Made by a program: the position numbers and the translations under genes. A model generated the notes under the pieces. That model was not told where the DNA came from. It saw only the letters and a list, made by a program, of their open reading frames with translations, and made no database searches. A DNA stretch of 47,754 nucleotides from a virus. Taxonomy: Duplodnaviria > Heunggongvirae > Uroviricota > Caudoviricetes. The DNA lies in the IMG/VR virus record IMGVR_UViG_2778261224_000004, one strand, 5' to 3'. Shown piece by piece: positions 45,853 through 47,754 of this stretch; the first letter of the stretch is position 1, and every line of letters starts with the position of its first letter.

Positions 45853-46830
45853 TTAATGTTGGAGTGATTTCCAGGTCTTTCTTAACCTGTTATAACGCTG
45901 CTCAACGAGGGATCGTAAATATGCAAGGTCAGCTCCAGGATACATGCCATCAGCAAATTCCTGGCTAACCTCTCTAGTGATTTGATGACGAAGTTCGGCC
46001 TCTCCCTTTTCCCGAACAAGACGCGCAGCTCTCTCCGCTGCTTTCTGTTTTGCCTTTATCTCTCTGGCCGTCTTCCTCTGATGCCATACATTCTCCATCT
46101 GCTCCTGAATAACAATACGCTTATAATCAGCCTCCGTTATCGCTTTTTTAAGCCGTTCGCTATTCTTCGCATTGAAGTAATTAAGTTTCTGGCTAACCGC
46201 ACGTCTCCATGCTTGTTCAGTAATACCAACGGTTTCCAGCAGTTGATCACGAATCTCTATTTTCGCTGGCCAATACTGTTTATTCACCCGATCCCAGCGA
46301 CGTTCATAATCAATAAAACCTAACGCTTTCAGTTGCGACAATGCCCTTGTACAGCGCGTTATAGACTTGTTCCCAGCTTCGGATACGGTAGACAGGCCGC
46401 AAAAATCAGCCAACGCCTCAGCACTGGCCAGAACCCGCTTAGAAATGATGTTTACATGGTGCAAAATCGCAGCGATCACAGCATTAATCGCCCGACGACG
46501 ATGCTCGTTTATCCGGCGCTTCCGCTCTGACGGTTGATTAACGTAGAACGCAACCTCACACGTAAGATCACGCCCATTAATGCGCTGTAAAGCATCAGAT
46601 AACACCAGCGGCAGCTTGTGCGTATGGTGCTTTGGAGGCTGGAACTCCGGCGACAAATTACAAACGTAAGCTGAACGTAGAGACGGCATTGGTCTATCCA
46701 TATGTTCGCTCTTGCGTCCACGGAAAACCAACGTATAATGGGAGTTGTCGAGGCGCCCATGGTTAGTTGTTGGTTTTCCGTGGATGTCGCAAGAAGCCCG
46801 CAGATTTATCTGCGGGCTTTTTGTTTCCAT
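45853..46830 (-). CDS. repA: Plasmid replication initiator RepA, IncFII (RepFIIA)-like; true start probably internal (Met 46701 or 46692)
   Basis: 325-aa ORF; ..FCGLSTVSEAGNKSITRCTRALSQLKALGFIDYERRWD.. resembles the RepA1 core as recalled; the N-terminal 43 codons overlap the antisense-RNA/leader structures. Confidence 0.6.
   Translation of the reverse strand: METKSPQINLRASCDIHGKPTTNHGRLDNSHYTLVFRGRKSEHMDRPMPSLRSAYVCNLSPEFQPPKHHTHKLPLVLSDALQRINGRDLTCEVAFYVNQPSERKRRINEHRRRAINAVIAAILHHVNIISKRVLASAEALADFCGLSTVSEAGNKSITRCTRALSQLKALGFIDYERRWDRVNKQYWPAKIEIRDQLLETVGITEQAWRRAVSQKLNYFNAKNSERLKKAITEADYKRIVIQEQMENVWHQRKTAREIKAKQKAAERAARLVREKGEAELRHQITREVSQEFADGMYPGADLAYLRSLVEQRYNRLRKTWKSLQH
46746..46826 (+). 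ncRNA. Candidate CopA-like antisense RNA opposite the repA leader
   Basis: Plus-strand TTGCGT-N16-TATAAT (46712-46739) and, about 80 nt downstream, terminator GCCCGCAGA-TTTA-TCTGCGGGC plus TTTTGTTT (46796-46826); perfect 15-bp inverted repeat 46718-46732 / 46768-46782 in the leader. Confidence 0.5.
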
Positions 46831-46866
46831 ATCTGGTCACTTTCCAACCAGACACCCACAATCATA

Positions 46867-46881
46867 ACCACGTTACGTGGT
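46867..46881. promoter_or_regulatory. Operator-like palindrome ACCACGTTACGTGGT in the repA promoter region
   Basis: Same ACCAC-N5-GTGGT architecture as the immunity-region operators. Confidence 0.45.
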
Positions 46882-47296
46882 TTTAAGAGAACTCTACCAC
46901 AACACTTTCGGTCATGCACGAAGTCTCTCACTGATCGAACGATAATCCACCAGTAAAAGGATCTAAATTGGATCTCGTTTTGCGAGCATCATACTACTGG
47001 CCTAACTCCAGTCAATGATTCCCAGCCAGAAACCTGCGGTAAACTCATCGTTCAGCAATATGCTGTCCGGCTTCAAAGATAAGGTGACATCATCCCTTAA
47101 CAGCGCGGCCAGTTCAGTTAAAGGGCTGTTCTGATTTAATGCTGGCCACTCATACCTGGTAATAAGTGGTCAGTCTTAACACTCACCATTTGATTGCACC
47201 CGTGTTGACGATTTGTTACTGGATATCAGACACGCTGGATAGCCAGTAGAAACATACCATTAAAATTATTACAATAATTGGTCACATGATTATCTT

Positions 47297-47754
47297 ATGC
47301 TGAATAATAAAGATATGAATATTAATGAACTTAAAGACTGTATTCACTATGAAGTAATCGGTAGCGAGCGTCCTTTCTCCTGGCGAAAGGCAATTGTTCG
47401 CGCAATAAAACATAGAAGGGTTCGTTATTTATTTTGGTGGCGCATAGCCAAATACCTTTTTGATAAAGGCGGATACTGTCGGAAGATTGCGGGAAAAATA
47501 GAACGTTTCATTCTTGATAAATATAATGTAACAGTCCCTTTAACTGTAAATATAGGGAAAGGCTTTGATATTTCTTATCTCAACAGTGTTGTTATCGGTC
47601 ACAAAGTAACAATCGGTGAAAATTGTTCAATTAAGCCCGGAGTAACTATTGGACTTCGCGGGGAATTTAATGATATGGATATTGTTATAGGGCATAATGT
47701 GACCATTGGTTGTAATGCCACCATTCTTGGTGGCAAAGTGCGTATAGGAAACAA
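47297..47754 (+). CDS. Hexapeptide-repeat O-acetyltransferase, N-terminal part (continues at 78..183 across the circular junction; about 187 aa in total)
   Basis: ATG at 47297; translation MLNNKDMNINELKDC...GKGFDISYLNSVVIGHKVTIGENCSIKPGVTIGL... with hexapeptide repeats; reads in frame into the terminal duplication. Confidence 0.75.
   Translation, partial: MLNNKDMNINELKDCIHYEVIGSERPFSWRKAIVRAIKHRRVRYLFWWRIAKYLFDKGGYCRKIAGKIERFILDKYNVTVPLTVNIGKGFDISYLNSVVIGHKVTIGENCSIKPGVTIGLRGEFNDMDIVIGHNVTIGCNATILGGKVRIGN

What the first reader, a model, noticed from the sequence alone, without database searches (positions are those of the whole stretch)
46712..46830. Candidate CopA-like antisense RNA and large stem-loop in the repA leader
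On the strand opposite repA there is a promoter with a perfect TATAAT (46734-46739) and about 80 nt later a strong intrinsic terminator (46796-46826). The repA leader contains a perfect 15-bp inverted repeat (46718-46732 / 46768-46782). This is the layout of antisense-RNA copy-number control in IncFII-type replicons. The annotated 325-aa ORF would have to read through these structures, so the real RepA start is probably internal.
Basis: partly seen in the sequence, partly recalled or inferred. Interest (0 to 1): 0.6.

Follow-up and report, generated by a model that had tools for sequence, protein, structure and literature searches.

The report
Antisense RNA switch controlling phage-plasmid replication
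The leader of the replication gene of this 47-kb E. coli phage-plasmid very probably encodes a roughly 80-base antisense RNA that throttles production of the replication protein: a familiar kind of copy-number control, built differently from the textbook CopA and IncB/IncI versions.

Summary
On the plus strand, TTGCGT-16 nt-TATAAT (46712-46739) is followed by a strong hairpin plus T-run (46796-46826). The repA leader contains a perfect 16-bp inverted repeat (46717-46732 / 46769-46784).

The promoter, the terminator and the long hairpin are all kept in relatives whose RepA is only 58-86% identical, with compensatory base changes. This includes a second clade in which both hairpin arms have a completely different sequence.

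The predicted ~82-nt RNA has a 7-nt tail, a stem-loop SL1 and a terminator hairpin SL2. SL1 folds only on the plus strand, because it contains invariant G·U pairs. Its apical loop is a mutation hotspot, as expected for a specificity loop.

The 325-aa annotated ORF is not conserved. The conserved start is ATG 46689 (or 46701).

The RNA is not a CopA homologue. Rfam gives no CopA, PK-repBA or PK-repZ hit, there is no tap-like leader peptide and there is no copB.

Folding suggests that antisense pairing frees the 3' arm of the long hairpin to cover the repA start region. This step is inferred, not shown.

Verdict: real, and a new variant of a known kind. Interest is moderate.

The parts
46712..46717 (+). 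-35 hexamer (TTGCGT) of the antisense-RNA promoter
   Evidence: Read from the sequence. It is TTGCGT in clade A and TTGCAT in clade B, 16 or 18 nt upstream of TATAAT. It matches the consensus at only 3 of 6 positions, so the generic scan did not report it.
46734..46739 (+). -10 hexamer (perfect TATAAT) of the antisense-RNA promoter. It lies in the 3' internal loop and upper stem of the sense hairpin.
   Evidence: It is invariant in all relatives found through the RepA protein that carry this module: L003, L006, L007-L014, L024 and L025.
46745..46826 (+). Predicted antisense RNA, about 82 nt. It consists of a 5' tail (46745-46751), SL1 (46752-46788) and the terminator hairpin SL2 with its U-tail (46789-46826). 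The 5' end is inferred from the -10 position and has not been mapped.
   Evidence: It folds at -39.2 kcal/mol, z = -6.45. The same tail-SL1-SL2 architecture is predicted in 23 of 23 variants from two clades. A covariance model built on clade A finds all clade B copies at full length on the expected strand, at 28.6-29.9 bits and E about 1e-6. It finds no match in R100 or L002.
46752..46788 (+). SL1 of the antisense RNA. The stems are GGCG/UGUC and CCAUGG/CCGUGG, around a 15-nt loop.
   Evidence: All cells form standard pairs and 2 pairs show changes on both sides. Three G·U pairs are invariant or nearly so and would be A·C mismatches on the sense strand. The region folds at -9.0 to -16.3 kcal/mol on the + strand against -1.7 to -5.5 on the sense strand, in 23 of 23 variants. 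In the window alone the stem is weak: z = -1.03.
46763..46774 (.). Hypervariable patch. It is the apical loop of antisense SL1 and the 5' internal loop plus top of the 5' arm of the sense hairpin. It is the candidate specificity (incompatibility) determinant.
   Evidence: There are 7 alleles among 13 near-identical 1-kb sequences, and an eighth (L035) in the wider locus set. 11 of 17 patch columns vary against 39 of 976 elsewhere (Fisher p = 1.7e-11), and all indels within the region lie here. The structurally equivalent SL1 loop is also the hotspot in clade B: 6 of 9 against 34 of 152, p = 0.008.
46796..46826 (+). Intrinsic terminator of the antisense RNA. Stem 46796-46803 / 46810-46817, loop ATTTAT, T-run 46818-46826.
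   Evidence: Thirteen pairs are conserved across both clades and 3 of them show compensatory changes: AU/GC, AU/UA/GC and GC/AU. No plus-strand protein gene ends here.
46711..46793 (-). Long hairpin H in the repA mRNA leader. Its parts are the basal helix 46788-46793 / 46711-46716, the 16-bp main stem 46769-46784 / 46717-46732, the upper stem 46756-46760 / 46738-46742 and the 13-nt apical loop 46743-46755 (CGCCUCGACAACU).
   Evidence: It folds at -37.9 kcal/mol. In clade A 98% of cells are paired, against 31-46% for slid controls, and 4 pairs show changes on both sides. Clade B has arms of unrelated sequence that are still complementary.
46743..46755 (-). Apical loop of H. It is complementary to the single-stranded 5' tail of the antisense RNA. 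The core GCCUCGACAAC is conserved in both clades.
   Evidence: The core is present in relatives found by protein search, independently of the DNA pattern.
46687..46703 (-). repA translation-initiation region. AUG at 46701-46699 (M44 of the annotated ORF) and the conserved AUG at 46689-46687 (M48). This is the proposed partner of the freed 3' arm of H (46717-46733) in an alternative hairpin.
   Evidence: The alternative hairpin folds at -19.7 kcal/mol. The arm/TIR duplex is -12 to -16 kcal/mol in 6 of 6 clade A types, z = -1.6 to -4.7. Unpaired probability of this region falls when the antisense target is blocked.
45853..46689 (-). repA, IncFII-superfamily replication initiator, with the conserved start at ATG 46689. 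The start could be ATG 46701, which would add MDRP.
   Evidence: PF02387 matches at 1.2e-43, starting at residue 52 of the 325-aa ORF. NF040977 RepA_IncFII_LM scores 231.7 bits. Homologues of 274-284 aa start at the M48 position.
46988..47015 (-). Candidate repA promoter, TTGACT-16 nt-TATGAT. It would give a ~280-nt leader.
   Evidence: It matches 10 of 12 consensus positions. The TTGACT ... TAT(C/G)AT pair is conserved in clade A relatives.

Best explanation
Setting. The window is a ~47-kb E. coli phage-plasmid. It replicates from a divergent IncFII-superfamily RepA, with the origin downstream of repA.

The RNA. Inside the ~280-nt repA leader, the opposite (plus) strand carries a small gene for a cis-encoded antisense RNA of about 82 nt. 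Its promoter is TTGCGT-16-TATAAT and it ends at an intrinsic terminator at 46796-46826. The RNA has three parts:
- a 7-nt single-stranded 5' tail;
- SL1, a stem-loop that can form only on this strand;
- SL2, the terminator hairpin.

The target. The RNA is fully complementary to leader nucleotides that lie 44 to 125 nt upstream of the repA start. That stretch contains the 5' arm of a long leader hairpin (H) and its apical loop.

Most likely mechanism (inferred):
1. The antisense RNA first contacts the nascent leader. Contact is made through its SL1 loop (hypervariable, so a candidate specificity determinant), through its 5' tail pairing with the conserved apical loop of H, or through both.
2. 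Pairing then spreads over the 5' arm of H.
3. The 3' arm of H is not covered by the antisense RNA, because it is the spacer of the antisense promoter. Once freed, it pairs with the repA start-codon region. In the second clade it pairs with the Shine-Dalgarno sequence of an upstream ORF that is coupled to repA.
4. RepA synthesis, and therefore replication, falls as plasmid copy number and antisense dose rise.

Without the antisense RNA, H forms and keeps its 3' arm away from the start region.

Shown by sequence comparison: the promoter, terminator, SL1 and H are conserved with covariation; SL1 is strand-specific; the 325-aa ORF is an annotation artefact.

Inferred only: that the RNA is made, that it is inhibitory, and the refolding step.
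For: Promoter and terminator
- They are conserved in all relatives that carry the module, at RepA identities of 58-86% and in two clades with otherwise different leader sequence.
- The terminator has 3 compensatory pairs.

SL1
- 100% of cells form standard pairs.
- Three G·U pairs are invariant or nearly so.
- It is more stable on the plus strand than on the sense strand in 23 of 23 variants.

Family coherence
- A covariance model built from clade A recovers clade B at E about 1e-6. It finds no match in R100 or in the L002 locus, which carries an IncB-type control region.

The SL1 loop is the mutation hotspot in both clades
- p = 1.7e-11 in E. coli-type clade A and p = 0.008 in clade B.

Hairpin H
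- 98% of cells paired against 31-46% in slid controls.
- 4 compensatory pairs.
- The arms are wholly replaced but still complementary in clade B.

Refolding
- With the antisense target blocked, the 3' arm pairs with the start region in all 7 clade A types. Unpaired probability falls from 0.36-0.63 to 0.13-0.32.
- In 6 of 8 clade B types it pairs with the SD, whose unpaired probability falls from 0.38-0.57 to 0.13-0.16.
- The arm/TIR duplex is -12 to -16 kcal/mol, better than shuffles.

Context
- No plus-strand protein gene could use this terminator.
- RepA belongs to a superfamily whose studied members all use leader antisense RNAs (PMC8053102).
Against: - No expression data exist. The 5' end is only predicted.
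- The -35 hexamer is weak (3 of 6) and the generic promoter scan did not report the site.
- TATAAT alone is not above chance.
- SL1 in the window alone is thermodynamically unremarkable: z = -1.03.
- Part of the relatives set was collected with a DNA pattern that contains the core and ATTATA. Conservation of those bases in that subset is therefore circular. Only the protein-ascertained loci count.
- In the clade A refolding model, the purine-rich AAGRG motif upstream of the first AUG becomes more exposed when the antisense target is blocked: 0.02-0.36 rises to 0.45-0.77. In the free state it is partly buried by the basal helix of H. The predicted direction of regulation therefore depends on which start and which SD are used.
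- Own-versus-cross arm/TIR duplex energies show no lineage-specific covariation.
- The one apparent compensatory change in clade B (GACC/GGUC) is a single event with a counter-example, L043.
- The loop hotspot in clade A lies in an AAC-repeat-like tract, so slippage could contribute alongside selection.
Confidence: 0.7

Rival explanations
1. The plus-strand RNA is longer. It would start upstream of 46712, inside the repA coding region, and contain the whole inverted repeat as one large CopA-type stem-loop followed by the terminator. It would then act by loop-loop kissing, as in R1.
For: The plus-strand version of the long hairpin is very stable: 46712-46826 folds at -69.5 kcal/mol, z = -11.3, and the same DNA folds at -44.0 on the + strand against -37.9 on the sense strand. 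One variant (L007) has a C·A mismatch in the sense hairpin that would be a G·U pair on the plus strand.
Against: No plus-strand promoter-like site lies upstream of 46712. That DNA is coding sequence and differs between clades. The TTGCRT-N16-18-TATAAT promoter inside the repeat is conserved in both clades. L008 has the opposite asymmetry, a U·G pair in the sense hairpin. The sense transcript must contain both arms in any case.
Confidence: 0.1
2. The element works as in R1 or in IncB/IncI plasmids. The antisense RNA would block translation of a short leader peptide, or formation of a pseudoknot, that is needed to open the repA ribosome-binding site.
For: All studied IncFII-superfamily replicons use a leader peptide (PMC8053102). 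L002, a relative with 62% RepA identity, has a bona fide PK-repBA element at 49.3 bits and a 15-codon leader ORF whose stop overlaps the repA start. In some clade A variants the first AUG opens a short out-of-frame ORF of 13 codons that overlaps the repA AUG. In the E. coli type, an AUG at 46830 abuts the 3' end of the antisense target.
Against: No ORF is conserved. The first-AUG ORF is in frame with repA in the window and L011, 13 codons in L007/L009/L024, 46 codons in L008 and 114 codons in L013. The 46830 AUG is absent or out of frame in many variants. There is no UUGGCG loop with a distal complement. There is no PK-repZ or PK-repBA hit at E<=10. Only about 44 nt separate the antisense 5' end from the repA start.
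Confidence: 0.12
3. There is no regulatory RNA. The inverted repeat would be a DNA-level element, such as a protein operator or cruciform. The hairpin plus T-run would merely insulate repA from neighbouring transcription. TATAAT would be a chance match.
For: TATAAT frequency in the window is at the chance level. The -35 is weak. There is no transcript evidence.
Against: The arms change sequence completely between clades yet stay complementary, with wobble pairs and bulges tolerated. That is RNA-like behaviour and not expected of a protein-binding site. The 36-nt spacing between arms is unusual for an operator. SL1 shows strand-specific G·U pairing in 23 of 23 variants. TATAAT and the 16-18 nt spacing are kept in both clades. 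No plus-strand gene lies upstream for the terminator to stop.
Confidence: 0.06
4. The annotated 325-aa protein is real. RepA would be translated from ATG 46830 through both hairpins.
For: The frame is open from 46830 in the window and in 5 of the 10 other E. coli-type variants examined. RefSeq annotates it.
Against: Indels of +2 and +5 nt in the hypervariable patch break the frame in L021, L029, L034, L035 and L037. Stops occur in L008, L011 and L024. Homologues at 58-86% identity are 274-284 aa long and start at the M48 position. The Pfam domain starts at residue 52.
Confidence: 0.03

Closest known systems
CopA/CopT of IncFII plasmids R1 and R100 (Rfam RF00042)
   Same: It is a constitutive countertranscript of about 80-90 nt, encoded opposite the repA leader. 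It has two stem-loops and its own terminator, and it presumably sets copy number by limiting RepA translation. The origin, with a DnaA box, lies downstream of repA. RepA is homologous: 40% identity over 97 aa and a PF02387 match.
   Different: There is no sequence or structure match to RF00042 at E<=10, whereas R100 scores 106 bits. In CopA the terminator stem-loop II carries the CGCCAA recognition loop. Here the terminator has a small AUUUAU loop (UUCG in clade B), and the variable, presumably recognising loop is in SL1. There is no tap leader peptide and no copB. The antisense promoter lies inside a long sense hairpin. The antisense 5' end is only about 44 nt from the repA start, against 85 nt in R100.
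RNAI / Inc RNA systems of IncB (pMU720), IncL/M and IncI-alpha (ColIb-P9), with a leader peptide and an activating pseudoknot (Rfam PK-repBA RF01089, PK-repZ RF01087)
   Same: This is the closest RepA subfamily: NCBIfam RepA_IncFII_LM scores 231.7 bits. L002, a relative with 62% RepA identity, has a PK-repBA element above the gathering score. The antisense -10 TATAAT lies in a comparable position...ATTATAC... on the sense strand. The antisense terminator begins with the same ACAAAAAGCCC context.
   Different: The window has no PK-repBA or PK-repZ hit. It has no UUGGCG target loop with a distal complement, and no leader ORF ending on the repA start. The long recognition stem-loop of RNAI is replaced by a short terminator hairpin plus a separate SL1.
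Countertranscript-driven refolding switches: pT181/pIP501 transcription attenuation, and the repABC ctRNA, which also hides the repC ribosome-binding site (own knowledge of the literature, not checked here)
   Same: The proposed logic is the same. The antisense RNA sequesters the 5' partner (the 'preemptor') of a leader helix, so the 3' partner pairs with a downstream segment and switches rep expression off.
   Different: Here the downstream partner is the start-codon or SD region and no U-run follows it. The output would therefore be translational, not transcription termination. The Rep protein family and the hosts are unrelated. The switch here is predicted only from folding.
IncI2 (pHNSHP45) repA control: ~108-nt antisense RNA, leader peptide RepR, no pseudoknot, plus the ProQ/FinO protein PcnR (PMC8053102)
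   Same: It is an example of an IncFII-superfamily replicon whose antisense control departs from both the R1 and the IncI1 schemes.
   Different: IncI2 still relies on a leader peptide coupled to repA and on an RNA-binding protein. Neither a conserved leader ORF nor a ProQ/FinO gene was seen next to repA here.

Membership tests
CopA-like RNA (Rfam RF00042) | Matches the family covariance model | tested here: not met
   No RF00042 hit in 46400-47300 on either strand, even at E<=10. The positive control R100 scores 106.3 bits, E = 3e-21.
CopA-like RNA (Rfam RF00042) | Countertranscript with its own promoter and terminator, encoded opposite the repA leader | tested here: met
   TTGCRT-N16-18-TATAAT and a downstream hairpin plus U-run are conserved in both clades. 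Transcription itself was not tested.
CopA-like RNA (Rfam RF00042) | A long, bulged stem-loop II serves as terminator and carries the CGCCAA loop, complementary to UUGGCG in the target | tested here: not met
   The terminator hairpin core is 8-9 bp (about 16 bp with the A/U extension that uses up the U-run). Its loop is AUUUAU, or UUCG in clade B. There is no CGCCAA/TTGGCG in the module.
CopA-like RNA (Rfam RF00042) | Acts by blocking translation of the tap leader peptide, which is coupled to repA | tested here: not met
   No conserved leader ORF. The first-AUG ORF is in frame, 13, 46 or 114 codons long, depending on the variant. R100 has tap at L062 4746-4820.
CopA-like RNA (Rfam RF00042) | copB repressor gene upstream of the repA promoter | tested here: not met
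   The neighbour upstream is a divergent transferase gene (window) or an invertase gene (relatives). There is no small repressor ORF.
IncB/IncI/IncL-M RNAI-pseudoknot control (Rfam RF01089, RF01087) | Leader matches the PK-repBA or PK-repZ model: SL I with a UUGGCG loop, a distal complement and a leader peptide | tested here: not met
   No hit in the window at E<=10. Relative L002 scores 49.3 bits, above the gathering score of 45, so the test has power within this RepA subfamily.
IncFII-superfamily RepA (Pfam PF02387; NCBIfam NF040977 RepA_IncFII_LM) | Protein matches the family model above the curated cut-off | tested here: met
   PF02387: 150 bits against a cut-off of 22.9. NF040977: 231.7 bits against 70. 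It is not the strict IncFII equivalog: TIGR03474 scores 77.9 bits against a cut-off of 446.9.
Sigma-70 promoter | -35 and -10 hexamers 16-18 nt apart | tested here: inconclusive
   The -10 is perfect, the spacer is 16 nt and the -35 matches 3 of 6. This is below the scan's threshold, but the arrangement is conserved in both clades. Activity was not tested.
Intrinsic (Rho-independent) terminator | G+C-rich hairpin followed directly by a U-run on the transcribed strand | tested here: met
   The 8-bp GC core is followed by UUUUUGUUU on the + strand. On the sense strand it is followed by UUCUUGCG, a poor U-run. Compensatory changes are seen in relatives.
pT181-type countertranscript attenuation | Antisense pairing frees a leader segment, which then forms a terminator hairpin followed by a U-run upstream of rep | tested here: not met
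   An alternative hairpin is predicted. It covers the start codons and is followed by CCGUCUCUACG, with no U-run. The logic is similar, but the output would be translational.

The most novel reading that the evidence does not exclude
The module would be a previously undescribed type of copy-number switch in the IncFII superfamily. It would have no leader peptide, no pseudoknot and no CopB. A countertranscript transcribed from inside a long leader hairpin would capture that hairpin's 5' arm, so that the 3' arm folds onto the repA start region. This is pT181-like 'preemptor' logic with a translational output. The fast-evolving SL1 loop would set incompatibility types that decide which of these near-identical phage-plasmids can coexist in, or displace each other from, one cell.
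Probability: 0.35. Interest if true: 0.6.

Novelty: new variant of a known kind. Interest (0 to 1): 0.45.

Why it matters
Phage-plasmids of this ~47-49 kb type occur in about 1.3% of complete E. coli genomes. They are also found in Salmonella, Klebsiella and E. albertii plasmid records and in three Yersinia phage records. PLSDB's MOB-suite typing gives them no replicon type, and RefSeq annotates an over-long RepA and no RNA in this region.

Knowing the real control element would bring several gains:
- a correct repA start;
- a marker for typing and incompatibility prediction, namely the SL1 loop allele;
- a handle on copy number, which governs gene dosage of anything these elements carry;
- a natural example of how antisense control modules are rebuilt within one Rep family. 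A relative at 62% RepA identity still has the classical IncB-type pseudoknot system.

It is not a new principle. Antisense control of IncFII-family replication is textbook.

Tried and rejected
- Rfam at permissive thresholds gave only chance-level hits (Thr_leader, CsrC), all driven by the terminator hairpin.
- The genome-contig scan with the RepA alignment returned only distant relatives, Buchnera pLeu and Bowmanella.
- Literature searches for this replicon, for the Yersinia phages vB_YpM_39/41/44 and for phage-plasmid antisense control found no description. The pSLy3 group turned out to be SSU5-like and not this element. A 2026 preprint on phage-plasmid copy-number heteroresistance was listed but could not be opened.
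- Leader-peptide hypotheses were rejected for lack of conservation: ATG 46830, the ATG at 46760 at the top of the hairpin (absent in clade B), and the first AUG at 46701.
- I looked by eye for a pseudoknot between the apical loop of H and the region next to the start codon. No complement is conserved in both clades.
- I tested whether each lineage's 3' arm pairs better with its own start region than with those of other lineages. It does not. The pairing is conserved rather than covarying.
- The GACC/GGUC double change in clade B looked compensatory, but it is one event with a counter-example, L043.
- The 94-kb record NZ_CP032086.1, with two copies of the module, was checked as a possible case of two coexisting alleles. 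It is a head-to-tail duplicate of one element with identical RepA.
- Cross-clade MAFFT/RNAalifold aligned only the terminator. SL1 and H therefore had to be analysed per clade.
Full report
**What the window is**

The window is identical over the region tested to a 47.3-kb non-mobilizable E. coli plasmid, NZ_LR130559.1. That record carries a full set of myovirus head, tail, lysis and terminase genes, plus ParA, ParB-like genes, a RelE/ParE toxin-antitoxin pair and one replication gene. It is a phage-plasmid. Three Yersinia phage genomes carry the same leader at 98-99.5% identity. In complete E. coli genomes the leader occurs in 71 of 5,426 genomes, always on a plasmid and once per genome.

The replication protein, on the minus strand, matches Pfam IncFII_repA at 1.2e-43. 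It matches NCBIfam RepA_IncFII_LM at 231.7 bits. It lies far below the cut-off of the strict IncFII equivalog: 77.9 against 446.9 bits. It shares 40% identity over 97 residues with R100 RepA.

**Checking the observation**

All three sequence features are present.
- TATAAT is at 46734-46739 (+). A -35 TTGCGT lies at 46712-46717, 16 nt upstream.
- The terminator is an 8-bp GC-rich stem (46796-46803 / 46810-46817) with the loop ATTTAT, followed by TTTTTGTTT. With its A/U extension it folds at -27.4 kcal/mol, z = -7.35.
- The inverted repeat is 16 bp and perfect, at 46717-46732 / 46769-46784. A further 6-bp helix extends it (46711-46716 / 46788-46793), giving a sense-strand hairpin of -37.9 kcal/mol.

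Taken singly the signals are weak.
- TATAAT occurs 36 times in the window against 33 expected.
- The -35 matches only 3 of 6 positions.
- Neither the promoter nor the terminator was picked up by the generic scan.
- The composite TTGCRT-N16-18-TATAAT is unique in the window, with 0.07 expected.

The case therefore rests on comparison with relatives.

**Relatives**

A protein search found RepA homologues at 58-86% identity. I fetched their contigs. I then added loci from viral and metagenome collections, found by protein or by a DNA pattern of the conserved core. Three metagenome hits were chance matches in high-GC DNA and were discarded.

The rest fall into two clades.
- Clade A comprises E. 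coli, Salmonella and Klebsiella phage-plasmids, including the window. The module lies directly upstream of repA.
- Clade B has the same module upstream of a 158-aa ORF whose stop overlaps the repA start.

Both clades keep the same features:
- TTGC(G/A)T, then 16 or 18 nt, then TATAAT on the antisense strand;
- a block GCCTCGACAACTCC;
- an antisense-strand hairpin with a U-run;
- a long sense-strand hairpin.

The loci found through the protein are L003, L006, L007-L014, L024 and L025. They are independent of the DNA pattern, and all of them carry the module.

One relative, L002 (62% RepA identity, next to a TrbC gene), has a different control region. It is a classical IncB/IncL-M type: PK-repBA at 49.3 bits (gathering score 45), a UUGGCG loop, and a 15-codon leader ORF ending in GTGA on the repA start.

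**The antisense RNA**

Starting six nucleotides after the -10, every one of 23 distinct variants folds into the same architecture:
- a 7-nt single-stranded tail, UUGUCGA;
- stem-loop SL1;
- directly after it, the terminator hairpin SL2 and a U-tail.

The terminator has 13 pairs conserved across both clades, and 3 of them show compensatory changes.

For SL1 in clade A:
- all cells form standard pairs, against 37-48% in slid controls;
- two pairs show changes on both sides;
- three G·U pairs are invariant or nearly so.

On the sense strand those three pairs would be A·C mismatches. Accordingly, the SL1 region folds at -9.0 to -16.3 kcal/mol on the plus strand and at only -1.7 to -5.5 on the sense strand, in all 23 variants of both clades. 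This strand asymmetry is the best available evidence that the plus-strand RNA is the folded, selected molecule.

A covariance model built from clade A alone finds every clade B copy at full length and on the expected strand, at 28.6-29.9 bits and E about 1e-6. It finds no match at E<=1 in the R100 locus, which contains copA, or in the L002 locus.

In the window alone, SL1 is not statistically remarkable: z = -1.03.

**The hypervariable loop**

Among 13 distinct 1-kb sequences of the E. coli type, which otherwise differ at 39 of 976 columns, 11 of 17 columns in the patch 46763-46774 vary (Fisher p = 1.7e-11). All indels within the region lie there. They give 7 alleles, and an eighth (L035) appears in the wider locus set.

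The patch is the apical loop of SL1. In clade B the SL1 loop has a different sequence and is not repetitive, but it is again the hotspot: 6 of 9 columns against 34 of 152, p = 0.008.

Fast change confined to a recognition loop is what antisense-controlled replicons show when incompatibility specificity diversifies. In clade A the tract is AAC-repeat-like, so slippage may contribute.

**The sense hairpin H and the layout**

In the repA mRNA the inverted repeat forms hairpin H. Its parts are a basal helix, a 16-bp main stem, an asymmetric internal loop, a 5-bp upper stem and a 13-nt apical loop. In clade A, 98% of cells are paired against 31-46% in slid controls, and four pairs show changes on both sides. 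In clade B both arms have unrelated sequence and are still complementary.

The layout differs from R1. The antisense -10 lies in the upper part of H, and the -35 to -10 spacer is the 3' arm of H. The antisense RNA therefore contains the complement of the apical loop (its 5' tail) and of the 5' arm, but not of the 3' arm.

**How it probably works**

I folded each leader twice: once free, and once with the antisense-complementary stretch forced single-stranded.

In all seven clade A types the freed 3' arm pairs with the stretch from the first AUG to the conserved repA AUG.
- The alternative hairpin is -19.7 kcal/mol in the window.
- The mean unpaired probability of that stretch falls from 0.36-0.63 to 0.13-0.32.
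- The arm/start-region duplex is -12 to -16 kcal/mol in all six distinct 3'-arm/start-region pairs tested, better than shuffled controls (z = -1.6 to -4.7).

In clade B the freed arm pairs with the Shine-Dalgarno region of the 158-aa ORF. The SD unpaired probability falls from 0.38-0.57 to 0.13-0.16 in six of eight types.

This gives a coherent negative loop. More plasmid copies make more antisense RNA. More leaders then have their 5' arm captured. The start region is occluded, less RepA is made, and replication slows.

The caveats are real.
- In clade A the purine-rich AAGRG motif upstream of the first AUG becomes more exposed in the blocked state, and it is partly buried by the basal helix in the free state.
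- There is no lineage-specific covariation between the arm and the start region.
- Everything here is thermodynamic prediction.
- Cleavage of the roughly 80-bp duplex by RNase III could add to, or replace, the refolding effect.

**The RepA start**

The 325-aa ORF is the longest ORF, not the gene.
- Homologues are 274-284 aa long and begin at the position of M48.
- The Pfam domain begins at residue 52.
- In E. coli-type variants with +2 or +5 nt in the patch (L021, L029, L034, L035, L037) the ATG at 46830 is out of frame.
- L008, L011 and L024 have in-frame stops upstream.
- ATG 46689 is the only start conserved in frame in all types.
- ATG 46701 is in frame only in the window type and in L011. 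Elsewhere it opens ORFs of 13, 46 or 114 codons.

There is therefore no tap-like leader peptide.

**Comparison with known systems**

Functionally this is the familiar scheme of IncFII-superfamily replicons, in which a leader countertranscript limits Rep synthesis. The R1, IncI1, IncB and IncI2 mechanisms are summarised in PMC8053102.

As a family member it fails the tests for CopA: there is no RF00042 hit at E<=10 against 106 bits for R100, no CGCCAA loop, no tap and no copB. It also fails the tests for the IncB/IncI pseudoknot systems: there is no PK-repBA or PK-repZ hit, whereas L002 passes.

The proposed logic resembles countertranscript-driven refolding in pT181/pIP501 and in repABC plasmids (my own knowledge of that literature, not checked here). 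Here, however, no U-run follows the alternative hairpin, so the output would be translational.

RefSeq annotates only repA over this stretch, and I found no paper describing the element.

**Verdict**

The finding is real and mostly correctly read. It is a conserved antisense-RNA gene and a conserved leader hairpin in a divergent IncFII-superfamily replicon of a phage-plasmid, together with a mis-annotated RepA start. It is a new variant of a known kind and is of moderate interest. Transcript mapping and fusion assays would settle it quickly.

Noticed in passing
L003:2528-3004 and L012:112-588 (clade B relatives): A 158-aa ORF sits between the control module and repA, and its stop overlaps the repA start (ATGA). 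It resembles the N-terminal part of RepA itself: NF040977 scores 46.5 bits, below the cut-off, over profile positions 38-164. It looks like a truncated RepA paralogue acting as a long 'leader' gene. In L006 most of it has been lost.
   Followed up: partly
window 46933-47015: A candidate repA promoter, TTGACT-16-TATGAT (47015..46988, minus strand), is conserved in clade A. Three GATC sites follow it at 46971-74, 46960-63 and 46933-36. The first two are kept as GATCC-N6-GATCC in most clade A relatives. This could link repA transcription to Dam methylation or SeqA.
   Followed up: no
window 46866-46882: A perfect 8-bp hairpin, AACCACGT-A-ACGTGGTT, lies in the repA leader. In relatives the stem is conserved and the loop varies. 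Its function is unknown.
   Followed up: no
window 45703-45711: A perfect DnaA box (TTATCCACA on the minus strand) lies in an AT-rich stretch about 140 nt downstream of the repA stop. This is probably the origin, placed as in IncFII oriR.
   Followed up: no
L002:2863-3004: This relative has 62% RepA identity and a conjugative-plasmid context (TrbC). It has the classical IncB/IncL-M control region: PK-repBA at 49.3 bits, a UUGGCG loop, and a 15-codon leader ORF ending on the repA GTG. Control modules therefore differ within one RepA subfamily.
   Followed up: partly
L016:1289-1351 (Bowmanella yangjiangensis, RepA 33% identity): The antisense-RNA model gives a weak hit (21.5 bits) about 150-210 nt upstream of repA, on the antisense strand. 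The sequence shows a terminator hairpin followed by CTTTGCG, as in the window. This hints that a related layout may exist far outside the Enterobacteriaceae.
   Followed up: partly
NZ_CP032086.1 (L063, L064): This 94-kb 'plasmid' of E. coli ATCC 25922 is a head-to-tail duplicate of the 48-kb phage-plasmid, with identical RepA in both copies. It is most likely a long-read assembly concatemer or a dimer.
   Followed up: yes
window 47044-47054 and upstream: Sequence similarity among E. coli-type elements breaks just upstream of the repA promoter. Some carry a DNA invertase gene there, whereas the window carries a divergent hexapeptide-repeat transferase gene (47297 onward). This marks a recombination boundary next to the replicon.
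   Followed up: no
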